Notes under the pieces: generated by a model
The model's input: the letters and a program-made list of their open reading frames with translations, nothing else
Databases searched by the model: none
Told to the model about the DNA's origin: nothing
In this document: positions 24,570 to 28,704 of the stretch, in pieces
How the letters are laid out: every line of letters begins with the position of its first letter
How positions within the stretch are numbered: the first letter of the stretch is position 1
NCBI GenBank assembly: GCA_963842085.1
Contig: CAWJET010000001.1
Span: forward strand, 1,504,001-1,568,000
From: an uncultured delta proteobacterium
GTDB taxonomy: Bacteria > Desulfobacterota > Binatia > Binatales > Binataceae
Direction: 5' to 3'
DNA length: 64,000 bases
Position numbers and translations under genes: made by a program

Positions 24570-26119
24570 CTGCTCGTCGCGCTCGCGTCTCGCTGTGGCG
24601 CTTCTCGCCGGCGCTCGTCCTGTTCGCGATCGTGATCGCGGACTTCCGCCAGCTCAGCGATCCCGATCTATGGCTACACATTCTGTCCGGGCGAGCGCTG
24701 CTTGCTCACGGCTCGCTGCCTCTCGTCAATCCCTACTCGTACTCAGCGCCCGGCTTCCGCTGGCTCCATCATGAATGGTTGAGCGAAGTGCTGATGAGCG
24801 CAATCCTCGACCGGTTCGGGCCGTTCGGCCTGAAGCTGCTCAAGTTCATCTGCACGGCCGGCACTATTTCCTTTATCGTTCTTTCCGAGTCCGAAACCGC
24901 CGCGCCAGCAGCCGTGCAGGCGGTAATCCTGCTGATCGCGGCAATTATCCTGGTGCCGGCGATGCAGTTCCGGCCACAGATATTCGATTTCCTGTCGCTG
25001 TCGGCGATTGTCGCGATGCTTTGCCGCCACAACTGGCGCGGTTCGGCGCCGCTCTGGATTGCGATTCCGATCGTGGCGATTTGGTGCAATCTCCACGGTG
25101 GATTCTTCATCGGGCTTATTGCGATGGGCGTTTATGGAGCAACGGTCCTCCTGTCCGACGTCCTGGCGGGCCACGGTCCGCGTCGCGGCCTCGGCATTAT
25201 TGCGATCACGGCCGCCGCTGCCGCATCTACGCTCTGCACGTTTCTGATCCCGCCCGCGCGCGAGACCTGGTACACGCTGGTGGCCTCGATTCTTAACCCG
25301 ACGACGCACCGCAACATCGTCGATTGGAAGCCGCTGCTCACCTCGCTTGCGACCGCGCCGCAGGGAGGTCTCGAGCGGAAATATTGGGTGATGGTGCTTT
25401 CCTTTTTTGGCGCCGCAGTAGTGTCGGTGATTCTCAGGCCGAAAGGTGGCGACGCGCCGCTGGTCGCCGTCGCCGCCGTACTGCTCGCGGCAGCCTTCGC
25501 GGCCCAACGCAACGTCGCGATCGCGACGATTTCAATCACTCCCGTGTTCGCGAACCACCTGGGTCTGCTGCTACGTCCGCGGGAGGCTGCCGACGCCGCG
25601 AGCGCTCAAGCCGTACCGCACGCAGGCCGCTGGGTCATGGAACTTCTGATTGCGATCGTCGCCCTCGGGTTCGCACGCCACAGCGGTATTTTGAAGCCTG
25701 GGATAGACGCGTCCGGCAATCCTGCCGACGCCGTCAACTTCATGAACAGCCACGGCCTCGCAGGAAACGTTATAGCTGACTACGCGTGGGGTGGGTTCGT
25801 CATTTGGCATGGTGGGCCGGGCACGAAAGTCTTCATCGACAGCCGCTACGATCTCGGCTACCCGCCCTCGGTGATCTCGGACTTCCTGGAACTGGACCGC
25901 GGCGAGGCAGGCGCCGCGCATACTCTCGCCGCCTATCCGACTGATTTCGTTTTGACCCGGCCAAATCGGCCGGAGGCAAAGGTGATGGATTCCCAACCGG
26001 ACTGGCGGCTCATCTATAGCGACGACACCGCCCGGCTCTACGCGCGCGCGAACTCACCCGCCGCCCGGCTTGAAGGCGTCCCGTTCAAGGGCACCGCCAG
26101 GCCGGCGTTCTTCCCCTAG
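24566..26119 (+). CDS. GT-C-like polytopic membrane protein
   Basis: DPDLWLHILSG, PYSYS, HEWLSE, WCNLHGGF, YAWGGF, VFIDSRYD. Confidence 0.75.
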   Translation: MTARRARVSLWRFSPALVLFAIVIADFRQLSDPDLWLHILSGRALLAHGSLPLVNPYSYSAPGFRWLHHEWLSEVLMSAILDRFGPFGLKLLKFICTAGTISFIVLSESETAAPAAVQAVILLIAAIILVPAMQFRPQIFDFLSLSAIVAMLCRHNWRGSAPLWIAIPIVAIWCNLHGGFFIGLIAMGVYGATVLLSDVLAGHGPRRGLGIIAITAAAAASTLCTFLIPPARETWYTLVASILNPTTHRNIVDWKPLLTSLATAPQGGLERKYWVMVLSFFGAAVVSVILRPKGGDAPLVAVAAVLLAAAFAAQRNVAIATISITPVFANHLGLLLRPREAADAASAQAVPHAGRWVMELLIAIVALGFARHSGILKPGIDASGNPADAVNFMNSHGLAGNVIADYAWGGFVIWHGGPGTKVFIDSRYDLGYPPSVISDFLELDRGEAGAAHTLAAYPTDFVLTRPNRPEAKVMDSQPDWRLIYSDDTARLYARANSPAARLEGVPFKGTARPAFFP

Positions 26120-26340
26120 CAGCTTTGGAGTGAGCCTATCTCGTCGAACTTGGTAGGTCCCTTTGACATCCTTAGTGCCTCTTGAAACATTTACGCGATA
26201 CAGCTAGTTTAGTTGACCATCACGGGAACGCCAAATTAGGGGATTGATATAGTTGACACACAAGGCCCAGCTCCGATATGGTGGTCATCGATGACGCGGA
26301 TTCCTAGGCTTTCTGGCGAGGTTTGCGCTTCGCTCGTTCG

Positions 26341-27294
26341 TCAGCAAGAAGTTGTTTCACTTCGTCTTTGGGGACGGAGACGATGCGCCGGAGTGCCGTG
26401 CGCATCTTGGACAGTGGCAGTGATTTTTTCTTCATAGGGAGATTCCTTCAATGACAGACGATAATCAGAATGCTGGCAATACGGGTGGCGCAGCGCAGGG
26501 AAATCAACAAGGACAAAATCCCGCGCCGGTAACACCTCCCGTCCCAGTGCCTCCTGCGACCACCACCAACCCTCGACAGACACTGAATACTGTGCAAGAG
26601 GAGGTGAGTCCGCGCGATACGCTGAACACGTCACAGCACAACAATCAGTCAGAGGCGCGGCGCTCGTTGAATATAATTCAGAAGGGCGGGAAGTGATCGA
26701 CCGAACAAGCGTCATTGCGACGGCAGCCGCCAAAGTAATTGCCAAGAGCACGCCCGCGAGCGCGACTAGGATCTGAGCCATGATCATTTGATCAGCCTTG
26801 TGATTTGCGATCCGATGATTGTCCTGTAGAACTTGGTGCATGGCGCTTATGTAGAATCGCTTGAGTGAATCGGAGCCTTGTAATACTCGATCGCGCGGGA
26901 ACCATGTTCCCTCACTTAGTTGGCTCCAATTCTGTGCACCGTGAAGTGCCATTAGAGAAAAGAGACACGCACTTCCTGCGGCCAAAGCCACGATCACGAT
27001 TGCGATCAGCTCAAGCCACGAATGCGTCCAAGTAGCACCGCGCATTAACAGAAGCGCCAGTATCGCACTACTATATCCAACAAGTGTCGTGGCCTTAGAA
27101 TCTATGAGCCCGACACGCTCCTCGTTCGCCGTAAGCAACATCTGTCCGAAATCGAACAGTTCCGTTGTTACGTCTTCCGCCGAATATTTCGCGAGAAGTT
27201 CATCGACTTCGGCTCCGGGCAATTCTATTGTCTTTGTCTTGCCCAAAACGGAATTTCGTAACCAGCGGCGCAATTCAGAAAAGTAGTTCTTCAT
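26341..27294 (-). CDS. IS passenger: three-TM protein resembling Pycsar effector (PycTM/DUF5706-like) architecture
   Basis: IDSKATTLVG followed by two TM helices, then NHRIANHKADQM followed by a third TM; ATGA overlap with the transposase stop. The family assignment is inference. Confidence 0.6.
   Translation of the reverse strand: MKNYFSELRRWLRNSVLGKTKTIELPGAEVDELLAKYSAEDVTTELFDFGQMLLTANEERVGLIDSKATTLVGYSSAILALLLMRGATWTHSWLELIAIVIVALAAGSACLFSLMALHGAQNWSQLSEGTWFPRDRVLQGSDSLKRFYISAMHQVLQDNHRIANHKADQMIMAQILVALAGVLLAITLAAAVAMTLVRSITSRPSELYSTSAAPLTDCCAVTCSAYRADSPPLAQYSVSVEGWWWSQEALGREVLPARDFVLVDFPALRHPYCQHSDYRLSLKESPYEEKITATVQDAHGTPAHRLRPQRRSETTSC
26451..26696 (+). CDS. IS passenger: 81-aa N/Q/P-rich peptide with a triple internal repeat
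   Basis: RBS AGGGAGA 8 nt upstream; repeats PRQTLNTVQ, PRDTLNTSQ, ARRSLNIIQ. Confidence 0.55.
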   Translation: MTDDNQNAGNTGGAAQGNQQGQNPAPVTPPVPVPPATTTNPRQTLNTVQEEVSPRDTLNTSQHNNQSEARRSLNIIQKGGK

Positions 27295-28211
27295 TGGGTC
27301 AATTCCTTGTAAGTAAGTCTTCTGCCATCGGCTTGAGCGAGCGCCAACGCAAAGCGATCCCCATCCCCGATTTTCCGTTGGTTGAATCGAAACGTCGCGT
27401 CGTCAAGGTAGCGATCAAGCTGCCACGGCATCACGAAATGATGCGTCCCATAAACCGTGCGCTTGAAGTTTGCCCAGAAACTCTCGATCCCGTTCGTATG
27501 GACCGCGCCACGCACATACTCCTCAGAATGGTTAATGACTTCGTGCGCGTAGTCTGCGTCTAGTCCGCGAAAGGCCGCTGCCTCATCGGTATAGAGGATC
27601 GCGCCTGATTCGACGTTACGACGAATCACACGTTGGAGCGTTTCCGCCCGTTCGTTAGGTACGGATTTAGCACGGATCTGCCCGTGCCTTGCGAGCAATC
27701 CGAAGACCACGGCTTTGCCAACGTTGCCCGTTCCACGATGCAAGCGTTTGCTGCGATGTTTGTTCTTCTCCAGTCCGCCGATGCCTGTAGTATCGCCTTC
27801 AACCGGCCCAGACATAGGCGTCTCGAAGCTGCCCGCCCTCAACGCGAGCCGGATTCGATGGAGCATGAACCATGCGGTCTTTTGTGTGACGCCTAGGGCC
27901 TTTGCCAGCCGGTGGGAGCTATAGCCCTTTGTCGAGCAAGTGAGCAGCCAGACGGCGGGGAGCCACTTATCGAGCGTAATCGGCGAATCTTCGAAGATGC
28001 TACCGACCTTCACCGAAAACTGTTTGCTGCATGATTTGGATTTGCAGCGCCAGATCGCCCGCGTTTGGATGAACCATACGTCTCTCGATCCGCAACCCCT
28101 TCGCGGGCATCTTACGCCGGTCGGCCAACGGCATTCGGCCAAATAGTTACGACAGATTTCTGGGTCTGCAAAGTATCGAATCGCTTCAATCAGTGTCCGT
28201 GGCGTCTTCAT
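27291..28211 (-). CDS. IS1595-family transposase
   Basis: N-terminal Zn ribbon CPRRGC...CKSKSC, TQKTAWFMLHRIR HTH, VEGD, YTDE, HTNGIESFW, RYLDDATFRFN. Confidence 0.95.
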   Translation of the reverse strand: MKTPRTLIEAIRYFADPEICRNYLAECRWPTGVRCPRRGCGSRDVWFIQTRAIWRCKSKSCSKQFSVKVGSIFEDSPITLDKWLPAVWLLTCSTKGYSSHRLAKALGVTQKTAWFMLHRIRLALRAGSFETPMSGPVEGDTTGIGGLEKNKHRSKRLHRGTGNVGKAVVFGLLARHGQIRAKSVPNERAETLQRVIRRNVESGAILYTDEAAAFRGLDADYAHEVINHSEEYVRGAVHTNGIESFWANFKRTVYGTHHFVMPWQLDRYLDDATFRFNQRKIGDGDRFALALAQADGRRLTYKELTQ

Positions 28212-28281
28212 AAGCTAGATACTACACGCACAACGCTTGTGTGTCAAGTATATCAATCCCCAAATTAGGGGGGTGTTTCGG

Positions 28282-28704
28282 ATGACGGTCGAAGACGCAC
28301 TGCGAAAGATCGCACTGTTGCGCAGGATCAGCACCGATAAAGGAGCCTTGGCGGCAGAGAGAGCGACTGCGCACCGCTTACAGAAGGTACTCATCGAGCG
28401 CTACGCGATCAGGGCACAGGATATCCCCGACGCCCCACCGACGACGGTCTTTCGCTTAAGCTGGAGTTACTGGCAGGAACTGTTTGAAGAGTTCGACCTG
28501 CGCTTGAACCATTTTGGGAGTCGCGGCAGCGCCAACGTCGGGAACAACAGTATCGCCTACATCATGCTTGCTACCAACCAGTGGTGGATCGAAGAAAGGT
28601 CCCCGGGCGGCTGGCAAACCACGACTCGCGGCGGGGGTGTCGAATCGCTGCGCAAGTACCTTAAAGACCACGCGCCAAGAAGCTACTCCTTTCTCAAGCG
28701 CTGA
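28282..28704 (+). CDS. Hypothetical protein with a DUF2786-like N-terminus
   Basis: LRKIALLRRISTDKGALAAERATAHRLQKVLIERY resembles the DUF2786 helical hairpin. Confidence 0.55.
   Translation: MTVEDALRKIALLRRISTDKGALAAERATAHRLQKVLIERYAIRAQDIPDAPPTTVFRLSWSYWQELFEEFDLRLNHFGSRGSANVGNNSIAYIMLATNQWWIEERSPGGWQTTTRGGGVESLRKYLKDHAPRSYSFLKR

What the first reader, a model, noticed from the sequence alone, without database searches (positions are those of the whole stretch)
26240..28260. IS1595 transporter element carrying a PycTM-like membrane protein and an antisense repeat peptide
Seen: intact TIRs and TSD, so a recent insertion. A 3-TM passenger is translationally coupled to the transposase. A convergent 81-aa peptide with a good RBS is fully nested antisense in the passenger's 3' tail. 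Known: IS1595 derivatives carry passengers, and Pycsar effectors are DxKA-containing TM proteins activated by cyclic pyrimidines. No cyclase is present here. Inference: a minimal mobile two-part defence or toxin-antitoxin module in which the peptide or its antisense RNA controls a membrane effector.
Basis: partly seen in the sequence, partly recalled or inferred. Interest (0 to 1): 0.7.

Follow-up and report, generated by a model that had tools for sequence, protein, structure and literature searches.

The report
Insertion sequence carrying membrane-toxin-like gene pair
This is an active jumping gene that carries, besides its transposase, a small membrane protein and a conserved short peptide encoded on the opposite strand; the pair travels together between mobile elements and looks like a toxin-and-antidote or phage-defence module, but its function is untested.

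Summary
Window 26240-28260 is a 2021-bp IS1595-family transporter IS with 25-bp terminal repeats and an 8-bp target duplication. The genome holds three 100%-identical copies, each with its own duplication.

The element has four genes, not three:
- the transposase;
- a roughly 200-aa membrane protein (TM), whose start overlaps the transposase stop (ATGA);
- a convergent 81-aa Q/N/P-rich peptide (pep);

pep is a real protein-coding gene. All 10 related loci that encode TM also encode it. Its codon-position differences are 271/184/495 and its dN/dS is 0.06-0.27. It persists where TM stops before it. The 117-aa TM "tail" that contains pep is clade-specific read-through whose amino acids are not conserved.

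TM and pep move together as a cassette between IS backbones and into a phage. k43 belongs to the backbone.

TM is only remotely PycTM-like. Pfam PF18967 is not met, PADLOC PycTM hits are weak, and no cyclase or nucleotide-binding domain is present. It is not a Pycsar system.

The likeliest function is a membrane toxin with a labile peptide or antisense antidote, acting as an addiction or abortive-infection module. That function is inferred, not shown.

The parts
26232..26239 (.). Left copy of the 8-bp target-site duplication (CAAATTAG)
   Evidence: Identical 8-mer at 28261-28268. The two other genomic copies have their own 8-bp duplications.
26240..26264 (.). Terminal inverted repeat at the cargo end. 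It contains TTGACA.
   Evidence: 24 of 25 bases match the other end. Conserved in 7 related elements.
26253..26282 (+). Inward-facing sigma-70-like promoter (TTGACA, 18 nt, TATGGT). Candidate promoter of the peptide gene; its transcript would be antisense to k43.
   Evidence: 10 of 12 consensus match. TTGAC[A/G]-N18-TATG[G/A]T is conserved at this end in L005, L006, L007, L009 and L010. This is a consensus match only; no transcript data exist.
26304..26435 (-). k43: a 43-aa lysine/arginine-rich protein belonging to the IS backbone
   Evidence: 74-83% identical in 8 of 10 related loci. Codon-position differences 99/61/252. dN/dS 0.04-0.25. A k43-like ORF follows the transposase directly in L061.
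26436..26450 (.). 15-nt spacer between the divergent start codons of k43 and pep. It carries a Shine-Dalgarno-like motif on each strand (AAGGA for k43, GGGAG for pep).
   Evidence: The same head-to-head arrangement, with a 13-19 nt spacer, is found in all 8 distinct IS-borne elements examined.
26451..26696 (+). pep: an 81-aa Q/N/G/P-rich peptide with no hydrophobic segment. It carries three R-x-(T/S)-L-N-x-x-Q repeats and ends in IIQKGGK. It is convergent with the TM gene.
   Evidence: Homologues in 10 of 10 TM-encoding loci, plus diverged forms in L049 and L050. Codon-position differences 271/184/495. dN/dS 0.06-0.27. 12 invariant residues in the C-terminal 28.
26686..27294 (-). Conserved core of the TM protein (residues 1-203): N-terminal helical region, invariant D65-x-K67-A68, and 2-3 transmembrane helices
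   Evidence: Alignments A1 and A2. Four homologues end here at 197-214 aa. 474 representative clusters match the profile at E<=0.001. AF2 model is all-helical with pLDDT 74.4.
26341..26685 (-). Read-through tail of the TM ORF (residues 204-317). It is antisense to the whole of pep and overlaps k43 by 95 nt in another frame.
   Evidence: Variable in sequence and length, and absent in the short forms. Its wobble position is the least variable codon position. The frame is nevertheless kept open more often than synonymous resampling predicts.
27291..28211 (-). IS1595-family DDE transposase, 306 aa. Its stop overlaps the TM start (ATGA).
   Evidence: Pfam DDE_Tnp_IS1595 1.5e-38 and Zn_ribbon_IS1595 2.5e-09. 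dN/dS 0.03-0.06.
28219..28247 (-). Inward-facing sigma-70-like promoter (TTGACA, 17 nt, TAGTAT) ending 7 nt before the transposase ATG
   Evidence: 10 of 12 consensus match. Conserved in all related elements. This is a consensus match only.
28236..28260 (.). Terminal inverted repeat at the transposase end
28261..28268 (.). Right copy of the target-site duplication (CAAATTAG)

Best explanation
Window 26240-28260 is one of three identical copies of an active IS1595-family transporter IS.

Backbone and cargo. The backbone consists of two 25-bp terminal repeats, the transposase, and a 43-aa basic protein (k43) at the far end. Between transposase and k43 sits a two-gene cargo cassette. The first gene encodes a roughly 200-aa membrane protein (TM) of an unnamed family remotely related to the PycTM/PF18967 pore-type effectors. 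The second is a convergent gene for a short, hydrophilic, probably disordered peptide (pep). The stop codon of pep abuts the natural end of TM.

Proposed mechanism (inferred). TM is a membrane-damaging toxin. pep is its labile antidote and acts as a protein. Its mRNA is also necessarily antisense to the transposase-TM-k43 transcript, so convergent transcription from promoters in the two terminal repeats adds RNA-level control. The cassette would then work as an addiction or abortive-infection module that pays for the element's upkeep in the host.

The tail. In this clade the TM stop codon is missing, so the ORF reads through the antisense of pep. The tail's amino acids are not selected. The open frame may serve to carry ribosomes to the k43 start.

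Shown: the element's anatomy, its activity, that pep and k43 are coding genes, the TM-pep linkage, and the mosaic exchange of the cassette.
Inferred: toxicity, the antidote role, promoter use, and translational coupling to k43.
For: Activity and family:
- Three identical copies, each with its own target duplication.
- IS1595 domains in the transposase.
- Complete copies with terminal repeats in 5 other distinct contigs, L005, L006, L007, L009 and L010. Four have a target duplication: exact in L006, L007 and L009, and 7 of 8 bases in L005.
- Two further elements, L049 and L050, have matching ends.
- The IS has 53.6% GC against 61.2% for the window.

pep is a gene:
- It is present in 10 of 10 TM-encoding loci.
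- The ORF is intact, with lengths of 40-97 aa.
- Codon-position differences are 271/184/495 over 1075 codon comparisons.
- dN/dS is 0.06-0.27.
- It is conserved in L007 and L013, where TM stops before it or within 4 nt of it.

Cassette behaviour:
- L006 versus L010 has synonymous difference (pS) of 0.345 for tnp and 0.473 for k43, but 0.089 for TM and 0.167 for pep.
- L007 versus the rest has pS of 0.50-0.60 for tnp, but 0.79-0.92 for TM and 0.74-0.86 for pep.
- L049 has a 90%-identical transposase but a 30%-identical TM, with its own convergent peptide ending IIKKGG.
- The pair also sits in an IMG/VR phage contig between an HNH gene and the small terminase, without transposase or k43.

Link to a membrane effector:
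- D-x-K-A is invariant.
- PADLOC PycTM models hit 57 and 43 of 100 members at E<=0.01, with best E of 5.7e-7.
- hhalign to PF18967 proteins is colinear over 111 columns at E 0.0011.

Regulation:
- Inward promoter-like sites lie in both terminal repeats and are conserved.
- The pep and k43 start codons are divergent and 13-19 nt apart in all 8 IS-borne elements.

Tail kept open:
- The probability that the frame stays open under synonymous resampling is 0.002-0.06 with IS codon usage and 0.08-0.24 with pep's own usage.
- Stop-creating codons occur at 2 of 50 at-risk sites against 85 of 253 elsewhere.
- The long ORF ends in ATGA with k43 in L005. In L006, L009 and L010 it ends 12-14 nt before the next ATG.
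Against: - No experiment or expression data exist. No RNA run was listed.
- Nothing shows that TM is toxic. True PF18967 proteins of this class sit in housekeeping-looking contexts with no cyclase beside them, so the fold alone does not imply a suicide effector.
- Pfam PF18967 is not matched by any of 112 member scans. The hhalign probability is only 20.6%.
- A convergent arrangement is unusual for protein antitoxins, which are normally co-transcribed with their toxin.
- The related loci share ancestry. The Fisher test and the resampling therefore overstate independence. Avoidance of stop-creating codons is also seen in L007 and L013, where TM does not read through (1 of 11 at-risk sites). This hints at a composition effect rather than selection for an open tail.
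- In the window copy itself, the long ORF does not stop at the k43 start. It stops 94 nt inside k43.
- In the phage copy, pep has a TTG start and a different N-terminus.
Confidence: 0.45

Rival explanations
1. The cargo serves the element itself rather than acting as a toxin-antidote pair. On this view TM, pep and k43 regulate transposition. One possibility is a switch in which the inward promoters of the two ends and the head-to-head pep and k43 starts decide between transposase-TM-k43 expression and pep expression, with TM not harmful.
For: - k43 is a backbone gene. It is conserved at 74-83% identity, it tracks the transposase rather than the cargo, and it follows the transposase directly in L061.
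- Both terminal repeats carry conserved promoter-like sites.
- The 13-19 nt dual-RBS spacer is invariant in architecture.
Against: - TM and pep also occur without transposase or k43 in a phage contig and in L013.
- Relatives of the IS appear to do without TM and pep (L061).
- The cassette is exchanged between backbones, as accessory cargo is.
Confidence: 0.15
2. TM is a non-toxic membrane protein with a host-beneficial or exclusion role, such as a channel, a stress protein, or a superinfection-exclusion or immunity factor. pep is a modulator or an unrelated small protein.
For: - PF18967 members over Pfam's cut-off lie beside permease, Usp, CHAD and UvrA genes, with no cyclase.
- The family has 474 representative clusters, mostly standalone proteins of 170-210 aa.
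- The position in the phage is typical of accessory (moron) genes.
Against: - The strict pairing with a convergent peptide across TM alleles only 30-34% identical points to a need to control TM.
- The distribution is sporadic and borne on mobile elements: 7 of 401 and 3 of 401 genomes in two phyla.
Confidence: 0.2
3. This is a Pycsar-type effector. TM would be opened by a cyclic pyrimidine made by a cyclase encoded elsewhere in the genome.
For: - Weak PADLOC PycTM hits.
- The D-x-K-A motif aligns with that of PF18967.
- The genome encodes 14 class III cyclase domains.
Against: - No cyclase lies in the element or in any related element.
- None of the 14 cyclase hits lies within about 180 kb of an IS copy.
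- Pfam finds no nucleotide-binding domain in TM.
- An element that jumps between phyla cannot rely on a host cyclase.
- PF18967 itself is not met.
Confidence: 0.04
4. The 81-aa ORF is not a gene. The 317-aa protein with its C-terminal tail would be the real product, and the antisense ORF a by-product.
For: - The tail frame is open in 5 diverged IS-borne elements, more often than synonymous resampling predicts.
- Gene callers report the long form: homologues of 266-360 aa appear.
Against: - Variation peaks at pep's third codon position, which is the tail's second position, and is lowest at the tail's third position.
- pep has dN/dS of 0.06-0.27.
- The tail sequence is unalignable and full of indels.
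- L007 and L013 keep pep while TM stops at 205 and 207 aa.
Confidence: 0.03

Closest known systems
Transporter IS (tIS) of the IS1595 family
   Same: - One DDE transposase with an N-terminal zinc ribbon, short terminal repeats, and an 8-bp target duplication.
- Passenger genes lie inside the repeats.
- The TnCentral preprint (10.1101/2021.05.26.445724; passage read) defines a tIS as an IS-like element with passenger genes, found so far only in the IS1595 and IS66 families.
   Different: - The cargo here is a conserved convergent gene pair plus a backbone mini-gene.
- I found no description of this cargo in the searches.
- The ISfinder name and subgroup could not be checked. The ISNwi1 and ISNha5 subgroup names are recalled, not tested.
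- The closest transposase in the plasmid collection is 44% identical.
Pycsar transmembrane effectors (PycTM; Pfam PF18967, PADLOC PycTM models)
   Same: - Small helical membrane proteins with a D-x-K-A-type motif just before the first membrane helix and a basic motif before the last helix. The alignment is colinear.
- About half of the family's members give weak hits to PADLOC PycTM models.
- PycTM is described as disrupting membrane integrity once activated (PMC11224242; introduction passage read).
   Different: - No cyclase partner.
- Pfam finds no nucleotide-binding domain.
- PF18967 is not matched at significance.
- The partner here is a peptide gene on the opposite strand.
Type I toxin-antitoxin loci with convergent, 3'-overlapping genes (for example txpA/RatA and bsrG/SR4 of Bacillus prophages; recalled, no call)
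   Same: - A membrane-protein gene and an oppositely transcribed gene overlap at their 3' ends.
- The loci sit on mobile elements and prophages.
- If both genes are transcribed, an RNA duplex must form.
   Different: - The toxin candidate is about 200 aa with 2-3 helices, not a peptide under 60 aa.
- The antisense partner encodes a peptide under purifying selection, not a non-coding RNA.
IS10 RNA-IN/RNA-OUT antisense control at an IS end (recalled, no call)
   Same: Face-to-face promoters near a terminal repeat would give overlapping opposite transcripts that could limit expression of IS genes.
   Different: Here the inward transcript would encode a conserved peptide. It would oppose k43 and the TM 3' region, not the transposase start. 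The promoters are consensus matches only.
Earlier finding e1-950485 of this scan (another genome): a 2.9-kb IS1595 element carrying a HEPN ribonuclease, a small peptide and a membrane protein
   Same: An IS1595-family tIS whose cargo looks like a toxin or defence set and includes a small peptide and a membrane protein (AI note seen; unchecked).
   Different: A different cargo family (HEPN). I have no sequence comparison, and look-up by the TM sequence found no look-alike window.

Membership tests
IS1595 family insertion sequence / tIS | DDE transposase of the IS1595/ISXO2 type | tested here: met
   PF12762 at E 1.5e-38, 132.6 bits against a cut-off of 27.
IS1595 family insertion sequence / tIS | N-terminal zinc-ribbon domain of the transposase | tested here: met
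   PF12760 at E 2.5e-09, 37.4 bits against a cut-off of 25.4, residues 19-64.
IS1595 family insertion sequence / tIS | Terminal inverted repeats and an 8-bp target-site duplication | tested here: met
   25-bp repeats with 1 mismatch. 8-bp duplications at all 3 genomic copies. Duplications also at 4 of 5 related elements: exact in L006, L007 and L009, 7 of 8 bases in L005, none in L010.
IS1595 family insertion sequence / tIS | Passenger genes inside the repeats (the tIS definition) | tested here: met
   TM and pep lie between the transposase and the far repeat. Definition taken from 10.1101/2021.05.26.445724.
Pycsar effector PycTM (Pfam PF18967) | Match to PF18967 above Pfam's cut-off | tested here: not met
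   No hit for the window protein at E<=1. 0 of 12 members at E<=0.01. 0 of 100 at E<=0.001. No PF18967 match in the own genome. Five of 11 homologues carry a precomputed PF18967.6 label of unknown strength.
Pycsar effector PycTM (Pfam PF18967) | Remote homology to PycTM profiles | tested here: inconclusive
   PADLOC PDLC02364 gives E 0.02 for the window protein. 57 of 100 and 43 of 100 family members hit two PycTM models at E<=0.01, best 5.7e-7. hhalign against 7 PF18967 proteins gives E 0.0011, probability 20.6%, 111 colinear columns.
Pycsar effector PycTM (Pfam PF18967) | Adjacent pyrimidine cyclase (PycC) | tested here: not met
   No such ORF in the element or its relatives. The 14 PF00211 hits of the genome all lie far from the three copies.
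Pycsar effector PycTM (Pfam PF18967) | Cyclic-nucleotide sensing by the effector | tested here: inconclusive
   Pfam finds no cNMP-binding domain in the 317-aa ORF. Whether all PycTM effectors have a recognisable one is recalled, not checked. Binding itself cannot be tested here.
Type I toxin-antitoxin system | Small (under about 60 aa) hydrophobic toxin and a non-coding antisense RNA antitoxin | tested here: not met
   The TM core is about 200 aa. The antisense partner is protein-coding under purifying selection. The family definition is recalled.
Type I toxin-antitoxin system | Overlapping opposite-strand transcription units | tested here: inconclusive
   The ORFs are convergent and overlap by 0-294 nt. 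Promoter-like sites are consensus matches only. No transcripts are available.
Type II toxin-antitoxin system | Protein antitoxin that binds and neutralises the toxin, usually co-transcribed with it | not testable with these tools
   The gene order is convergent, not an operon. Binding cannot be established computationally here.

The most novel reading that the evidence does not exclude
This may be a previously undescribed kind of mobile toxin-antidote unit.

- A PycTM-like membrane toxin would be held in check by a partner that is both a conserved disordered peptide and, unavoidably, an antisense RNA.
- The toxin's reading frame would be deliberately kept open across the whole antidote gene. 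This would be true dual coding that carries ribosomes to the downstream backbone gene k43.
- Both transcripts would start at promoters inside the transposase-binding terminal repeats. Transposase occupancy of the ends would then set the toxin-to-antidote balance and tie host killing or defence to the state of the element.
Probability: 0.15. Interest if true: 0.8.

Novelty: new variant of a known kind. Interest (0 to 1): 0.55.

Why it matters
Transporter ISs are the smallest vehicles known to move cargo genes, and what they carry is poorly charted.

This one carries a self-contained pair: a membrane protein and an opposite-strand peptide. The pair is exchanged between IS backbones and a phage. 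It occurs in metagenome-assembled genomes labelled as three different groups, with transposases 93-97% identical in protein sequence.

If the pair is a toxin-antidote or abortive-infection unit, it would add a 0.9-kb module to the defence and addiction repertoire. It would also give a function to a family of at least 474 protein clusters that has no Pfam or NCBIfam name. And it would show that insertion sequences, like plasmids and prophages, pay their way with such modules.

The locus is also a clean natural case of a small gene that gene callers miss because a longer read-through ORF lies on the other strand. Only 5 proteins like pep and 3 like k43 were found among 5.8 billion.

Tried and rejected
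- RNA evidence: no RNA holder was listed for the element, so expression could not be examined.
- Complex prediction of the TM core with pep gave no support (score 0.01 against a mark of 0.32). This is not evidence either way.
- Fold searches of the TM model (pLDDT 74.4) were uninformative. Foldseek against the PDB gave nothing at E<=0.001. VIA-align wide gave only generic long-helix and BAR-type bundles at Z<=10.6, below the level that is meaningful for helical bundles.
- Rfam found no family in 26000-28500 at E<=1.
- The ESM Atlas gave no usable hit for pep.
- Pfam and NCBIfam gave no family for TM, pep or k43. The extra cargo of L006 also had no Pfam match.
- tblastn with the TM core found no match in the phage or plasmid collections.
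- The terminator scan found no terminator at the TM/pep junction. The 2 sites found anywhere compare with 2.5 expected.
- A search for the second terminal repeat of the apparently cargo-less relatives L061 and L055 failed, so their borders are undefined.
- Literature searches: "IS1595" with "passenger gene", PycTM, ISNwi1, "transporter IS" with tIS and IS1595, and DUF5706. None of the listed titles or abstracts, nor the passages read, mentions this cargo. Full texts were not read, supplements were closed, and the 2009 paper that defined the IS1595 family is not in the library.
- Rejected idea: that high transposase identity with low TM identity reflects only fast evolution of TM. Synonymous divergence differs between backbone and cargo in both directions, which requires recombination.
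- Rejected idea: a holin or lysis role in the phage copy. No endolysin was seen beside it.
Full report
OBSERVATION

The element spans 26240-28260 (2021 bp). Its ends are 25-bp inverted repeats with one mismatch, flanked by the direct repeat CAAATTAG. A search of the window's own genome finds three full-length copies at 100% identity, plus one unrelated 70% partial hit. The three copies have different flanks and their own 8-bp duplications: CTAATTAG, CAAATTAG and CAAATTTG. The element has therefore moved recently and more than once. It has 53.6% GC against 61.2% for the window.

The 306-aa ORF at 27291-28211(-) carries the IS1595 DDE domain (E 1.5e-38) and the IS1595 zinc ribbon (E 2.5e-09). 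Its stop overlaps the start of the next ORF as ATGA. That next ORF is 26341-27294(-), 317 aa. The 81-aa ORF at 26451-26696(+) lies entirely antisense to codons 200-282 of the 317-aa ORF.

FOUR GENES, NOT THREE

A 43-aa lysine/arginine-rich ORF (k43, 26304-26435, - strand) lies between the peptide gene and the terminal repeat. It recurs at 74-83% identity in 8 of 10 related loci. Its codon-position differences are 99/61/252 over 615 codon comparisons, and its dN/dS is 0.04-0.25. It is a real gene.

Its ATG and the peptide's ATG point away from each other across a 15-nt spacer that carries a Shine-Dalgarno-like motif on each strand. This head-to-head arrangement, with a 13-19 nt spacer, is present in all 8 distinct IS-borne elements I examined: the window, L005, L006, L007, L009, L010, L049 and L050. 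In L006 the gene facing pep is an extra 62-aa ORF rather than k43.

RELATED ELEMENTS

Scans with the passenger alignment returned:
- 3 loci from species genomes, titled by the tool as MAGs of Candidatus Acidiferrales, Deltaproteobacteria and Candidatus Binatus;
- 7 loci from metagenomes;
- 1 locus from IMG/VR.

After merging duplicates (L005=L008, L007=L014, L010=L011, L012=L046, L006=L035), seven distinct relatives remain. Five of them (L005, L006, L007, L009, L010) are complete elements with the same repeats. Four of those five have an 8-bp duplication: exact in L006, L007 and L009, and 7 of 8 bases in L005. L010 has none. In these five, identity to the window proteins is 93-95% for the transposase (97% over the partial duplicate L011), 51-82% for TM, 40-71% for pep and 74-83% for k43.

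A transposase search of 401 genomes of the same class found matches at E<=1e-60 in 71. This tally includes four genomes flagged as unpublished, and no other claim rests on them. Two further variants came from that search.
- L049 has a 90%-identical transposase. It carries a TM allele only 30% identical, a 40-aa proline-rich convergent peptide ending IIKKGG, and a k43-like gene.
- L050 has a 74%-identical transposase. It carries a TM allele 34% identical whose N-terminal part is in another frame, an 84-aa convergent peptide with the same N-terminus as pep, and a k43-like gene.

THE PEPTIDE IS A GENE; THE TAIL IS READ-THROUGH

All 10 loci that encode TM encode a pep homologue on the opposite strand, immediately downstream. 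The ORF is intact everywhere, with lengths of 40-97 aa.

The frame relation is informative: pep's third codon position lies opposite the second position of the TM tail. Among the six long forms, differences fall 271/184/495 on pep positions 1/2/3 over 1075 codon comparisons. That is the signature of selection on the pep frame, and the reverse of what a coding tail would show. pep has dN/dS of 0.06-0.27.

The C-terminal 28 residues hold 12 invariant positions (R55, T57, N59, S61, Q62, H63, A69, R70, N74, Q77, K78, G79). The middle is a proline/valine-rich stretch of variable length.

Four TM homologues end at 197-214 aa, just after the last membrane helix. In L007 and L013, TM stops 3 nt before the pep stop or overlaps it by 4 nt, and pep is still conserved. 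In L049 and L050 the overlap is 42 and 87 nt. The "3' tail" is therefore not part of the conserved protein. In the window's clade the TM stop codon is simply missing.

A RESIDUAL PUZZLE

The tail frame stays open in five diverged IS-borne elements.
- Resampling pep's synonymous codons keeps it open in only 0.2-6% of trials with the codon usage of the IS genes, and in 8-24% with pep's own usage.
- Codons that would create an antisense stop occur at 2 of 50 at-risk sites against 85 of 253 elsewhere (Fisher p 4e-6).
- The loci are related, so these figures overstate the case.
- The avoidance also appears in the two short-form loci (1 of 11 at-risk sites), which hints at a composition effect.

The long ORF ends in ATGA with k43 in L005. 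In L006, L009 and L010 it ends 2-5 nt past the pep start codon, which is 12-14 nt before the next ATG. In the window it runs 94 nt into k43. I read this as a possible device for carrying ribosomes through the antisense region to the next gene. This is a suggestion, not a result.

BACKBONE AND CASSETTE

Synonymous divergence is discordant in both directions.
- Between L006 and L010 the proportion of synonymous differences (pS) is 0.345 for the transposase and 0.473 for k43, but 0.089 for TM and 0.167 for pep.
- Between L007 and the others it is 0.50-0.60 for the transposase, but 0.79-0.92 for TM and 0.74-0.86 for pep.

Together with L049 and L050, this shows that TM and pep are exchanged as one unit between backbones made of repeats, transposase and k43.

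In L061, whose transposase is about 53% identical, a 52-aa k43-like ORF follows the transposase after 44 nt with no cargo between them. I could not define that element's far end.

The cassette also occurs outside any IS. In a 29.7-kb IMG/VR contig (L046=L012), two tandem TM paralogues and pep lie between an HNH endonuclease gene and the small and large terminase genes. There pep has a TTG start and a different N-terminus.

L006 carries a second convergent pair of small ORFs (62 and 94 aa, no Pfam match) inserted at the pep/k43 junction.

WHAT TM IS

The conserved core is residues 1-203. It has an N-terminal helical region, the invariant D65-x-K67-A68, and then 2-3 membrane helices. The AlphaFold model is all-helical, with pLDDT 74.4 and pTM 0.56.

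A profile search of 1.84 billion representative proteins finds 474 clusters at E<=0.001, 293 at E<=1e-10 and 25 at E<=1e-30. Most are standalone proteins of 170-210 aa.

None of 100 sampled members matches Pfam PF18967 or any NCBIfam family. 57 and 43 of the 100 match two PADLOC PycTM models at E<=0.01, with best E of 5.7e-7. The window protein's own PADLOC hit has E 0.02.

An hhalign comparison with seven PF18967 proteins taken from genomes of the same class aligns 111 columns colinearly. D-x-K-A falls on A-D-x-K-A, and the basic motif before the last helix is matched. The E-value is 0.0011 and the probability 20.6%. I take this as probable remote kinship, not membership.

Those PF18967 proteins sit beside permease, Usp, CHAD, phosphoketolase and UvrA genes, not cyclases. 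The fold by itself therefore does not prove a defence role.

The family is rare and patchy. It was found in 7 of 401 genomes of the window's phylum, strongly only in the own genome and one congener. It was found in 3 of 401 genomes of the phylum of L005. It was not found in the cultured-phage or plasmid collections.

REGULATION (INFERRED)

Both terminal repeats contain TTGACA followed by a -10-like hexamer facing inward, and both are conserved in the related elements.
- The site at the transposase end finishes 7 nt before the transposase ATG.
- The site at the cargo end would launch a + strand transcript that is first antisense to k43 and then encodes pep.

k43 lies beyond pep, so any transposase-TM-k43 transcript must be fully complementary to the pep mRNA. 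If both promoters fire, RNA duplexes and transcriptional collision are unavoidable. No transcript data could be obtained.

MECHANISM AND ODDS

My best reading, at about 0.45, is a membrane toxin (TM) with a labile peptide antidote (pep), backed by antisense control. The pair would serve as an addiction or abortive-infection module. The grounds are:
- strict pairing across very divergent alleles;
- co-transfer as a cassette;
- residence only on mobile elements;
- a sporadic distribution;
- kinship with pore-type effectors;
- a hydrophilic, low-confidence-fold peptide of the kind typical of antitoxins.

The rivals are:
- a role in the element's own regulation (0.15);
- a non-toxic membrane or exclusion function (0.2);
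- a Pycsar-type effector fed by a distant cyclase (0.04);
- pep not being a gene (0.03).

COMPARISON AND NOVELTY

As a mobile element it is a new member of the known IS1595 transporter-IS kind (definition read). The cargo is what is new: a convergent gene pair of a membrane protein and a peptide, of no named family.

It works most like a type I/II hybrid toxin-antitoxin unit, but it fails the definitions of both. It resembles PycTM without the features that define Pycsar.

That suggests such cargo may be a wider habit of this IS family.

CAVEATS

- All functional statements are inference.
- Related loci are not independent.
- Several relatives come from metagenome bins.
- Supplements of papers were closed, and the founding IS1595 paper and ISfinder were not available. 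An existing name for this element cannot be excluded.

Noticed in passing
L006:3910-4486 (also L035): This relative carries about 500 bp of extra cargo at the pep/k43 junction. It is a second convergent pair of small ORFs (62 aa on the + strand, about 94 aa on the - strand). Each ORF faces its neighbour across a 13-17 nt spacer like the one between pep and k43. Neither has a Pfam match. In one database protein (P0005) the 62-aa ORF is fused to the TM read-through tail.
   Followed up: partly
L012:2579-3187 and L049:849-1478: A second, very divergent TM subfamily, 22-30% identical to the window protein. It occurs in tandem with the window-type TM in the phage contig, and as the sole TM allele in an IS whose transposase is 90% identical.
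   Followed up: partly
own genome G000:C1:1988622-1989539 (outside the window; L004): A second IS1595-family transposase, 51% identical in protein and 70% over 182 nt of DNA, lies elsewhere in the same genome. Its cargo and ends were not examined.
   Followed up: no
L087:1283-1456: Beside a standalone TM homologue (31% identical, no transposase nearby) lies a convergent 57-aa proline/aspartate-rich ORF that ends 12 nt from the TM stop. It could be an analogue of pep or a chance ORF in GC-rich DNA.
   Followed up: no
L016-L021: Proteins that pass Pfam's PycTM (PF18967) cut-off in this bacterial class are standalone proteins of 166-198 aa, counted from the first ATG. One is up to 267 aa if an upstream ATG is used. 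They lie next to housekeeping-type genes (permease, Usp, CHAD, phosphoketolase, UvrA) with no cyclase beside them. The Pfam family is therefore much broader than Pycsar.
   Followed up: partly
target sites of all copies (window 26232-26239; L001, L003, L005-L009, L049): The 8-bp duplications read CWAnnTWG: CTAATTAG, CAAATTAG, CAAATTTG, CAAGTTAG, CTAATTTG, CAAAATAG and CTAAATTG. This suggests a preferred, near-palindromic AT-rich target.
   Followed up: partly
L044 and L045 (plasmid records NZ_CP034087.1 and NZ_CP118183.1): The nearest plasmid-borne IS1595 transposases (44% and 41% identical) are followed on the same strand by unrelated hypothetical genes (141 and 95 aa) or by a roughly 600-aa AAA ATPase. 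These may be other cargo-bearing relatives. Their ends were not checked.
   Followed up: no
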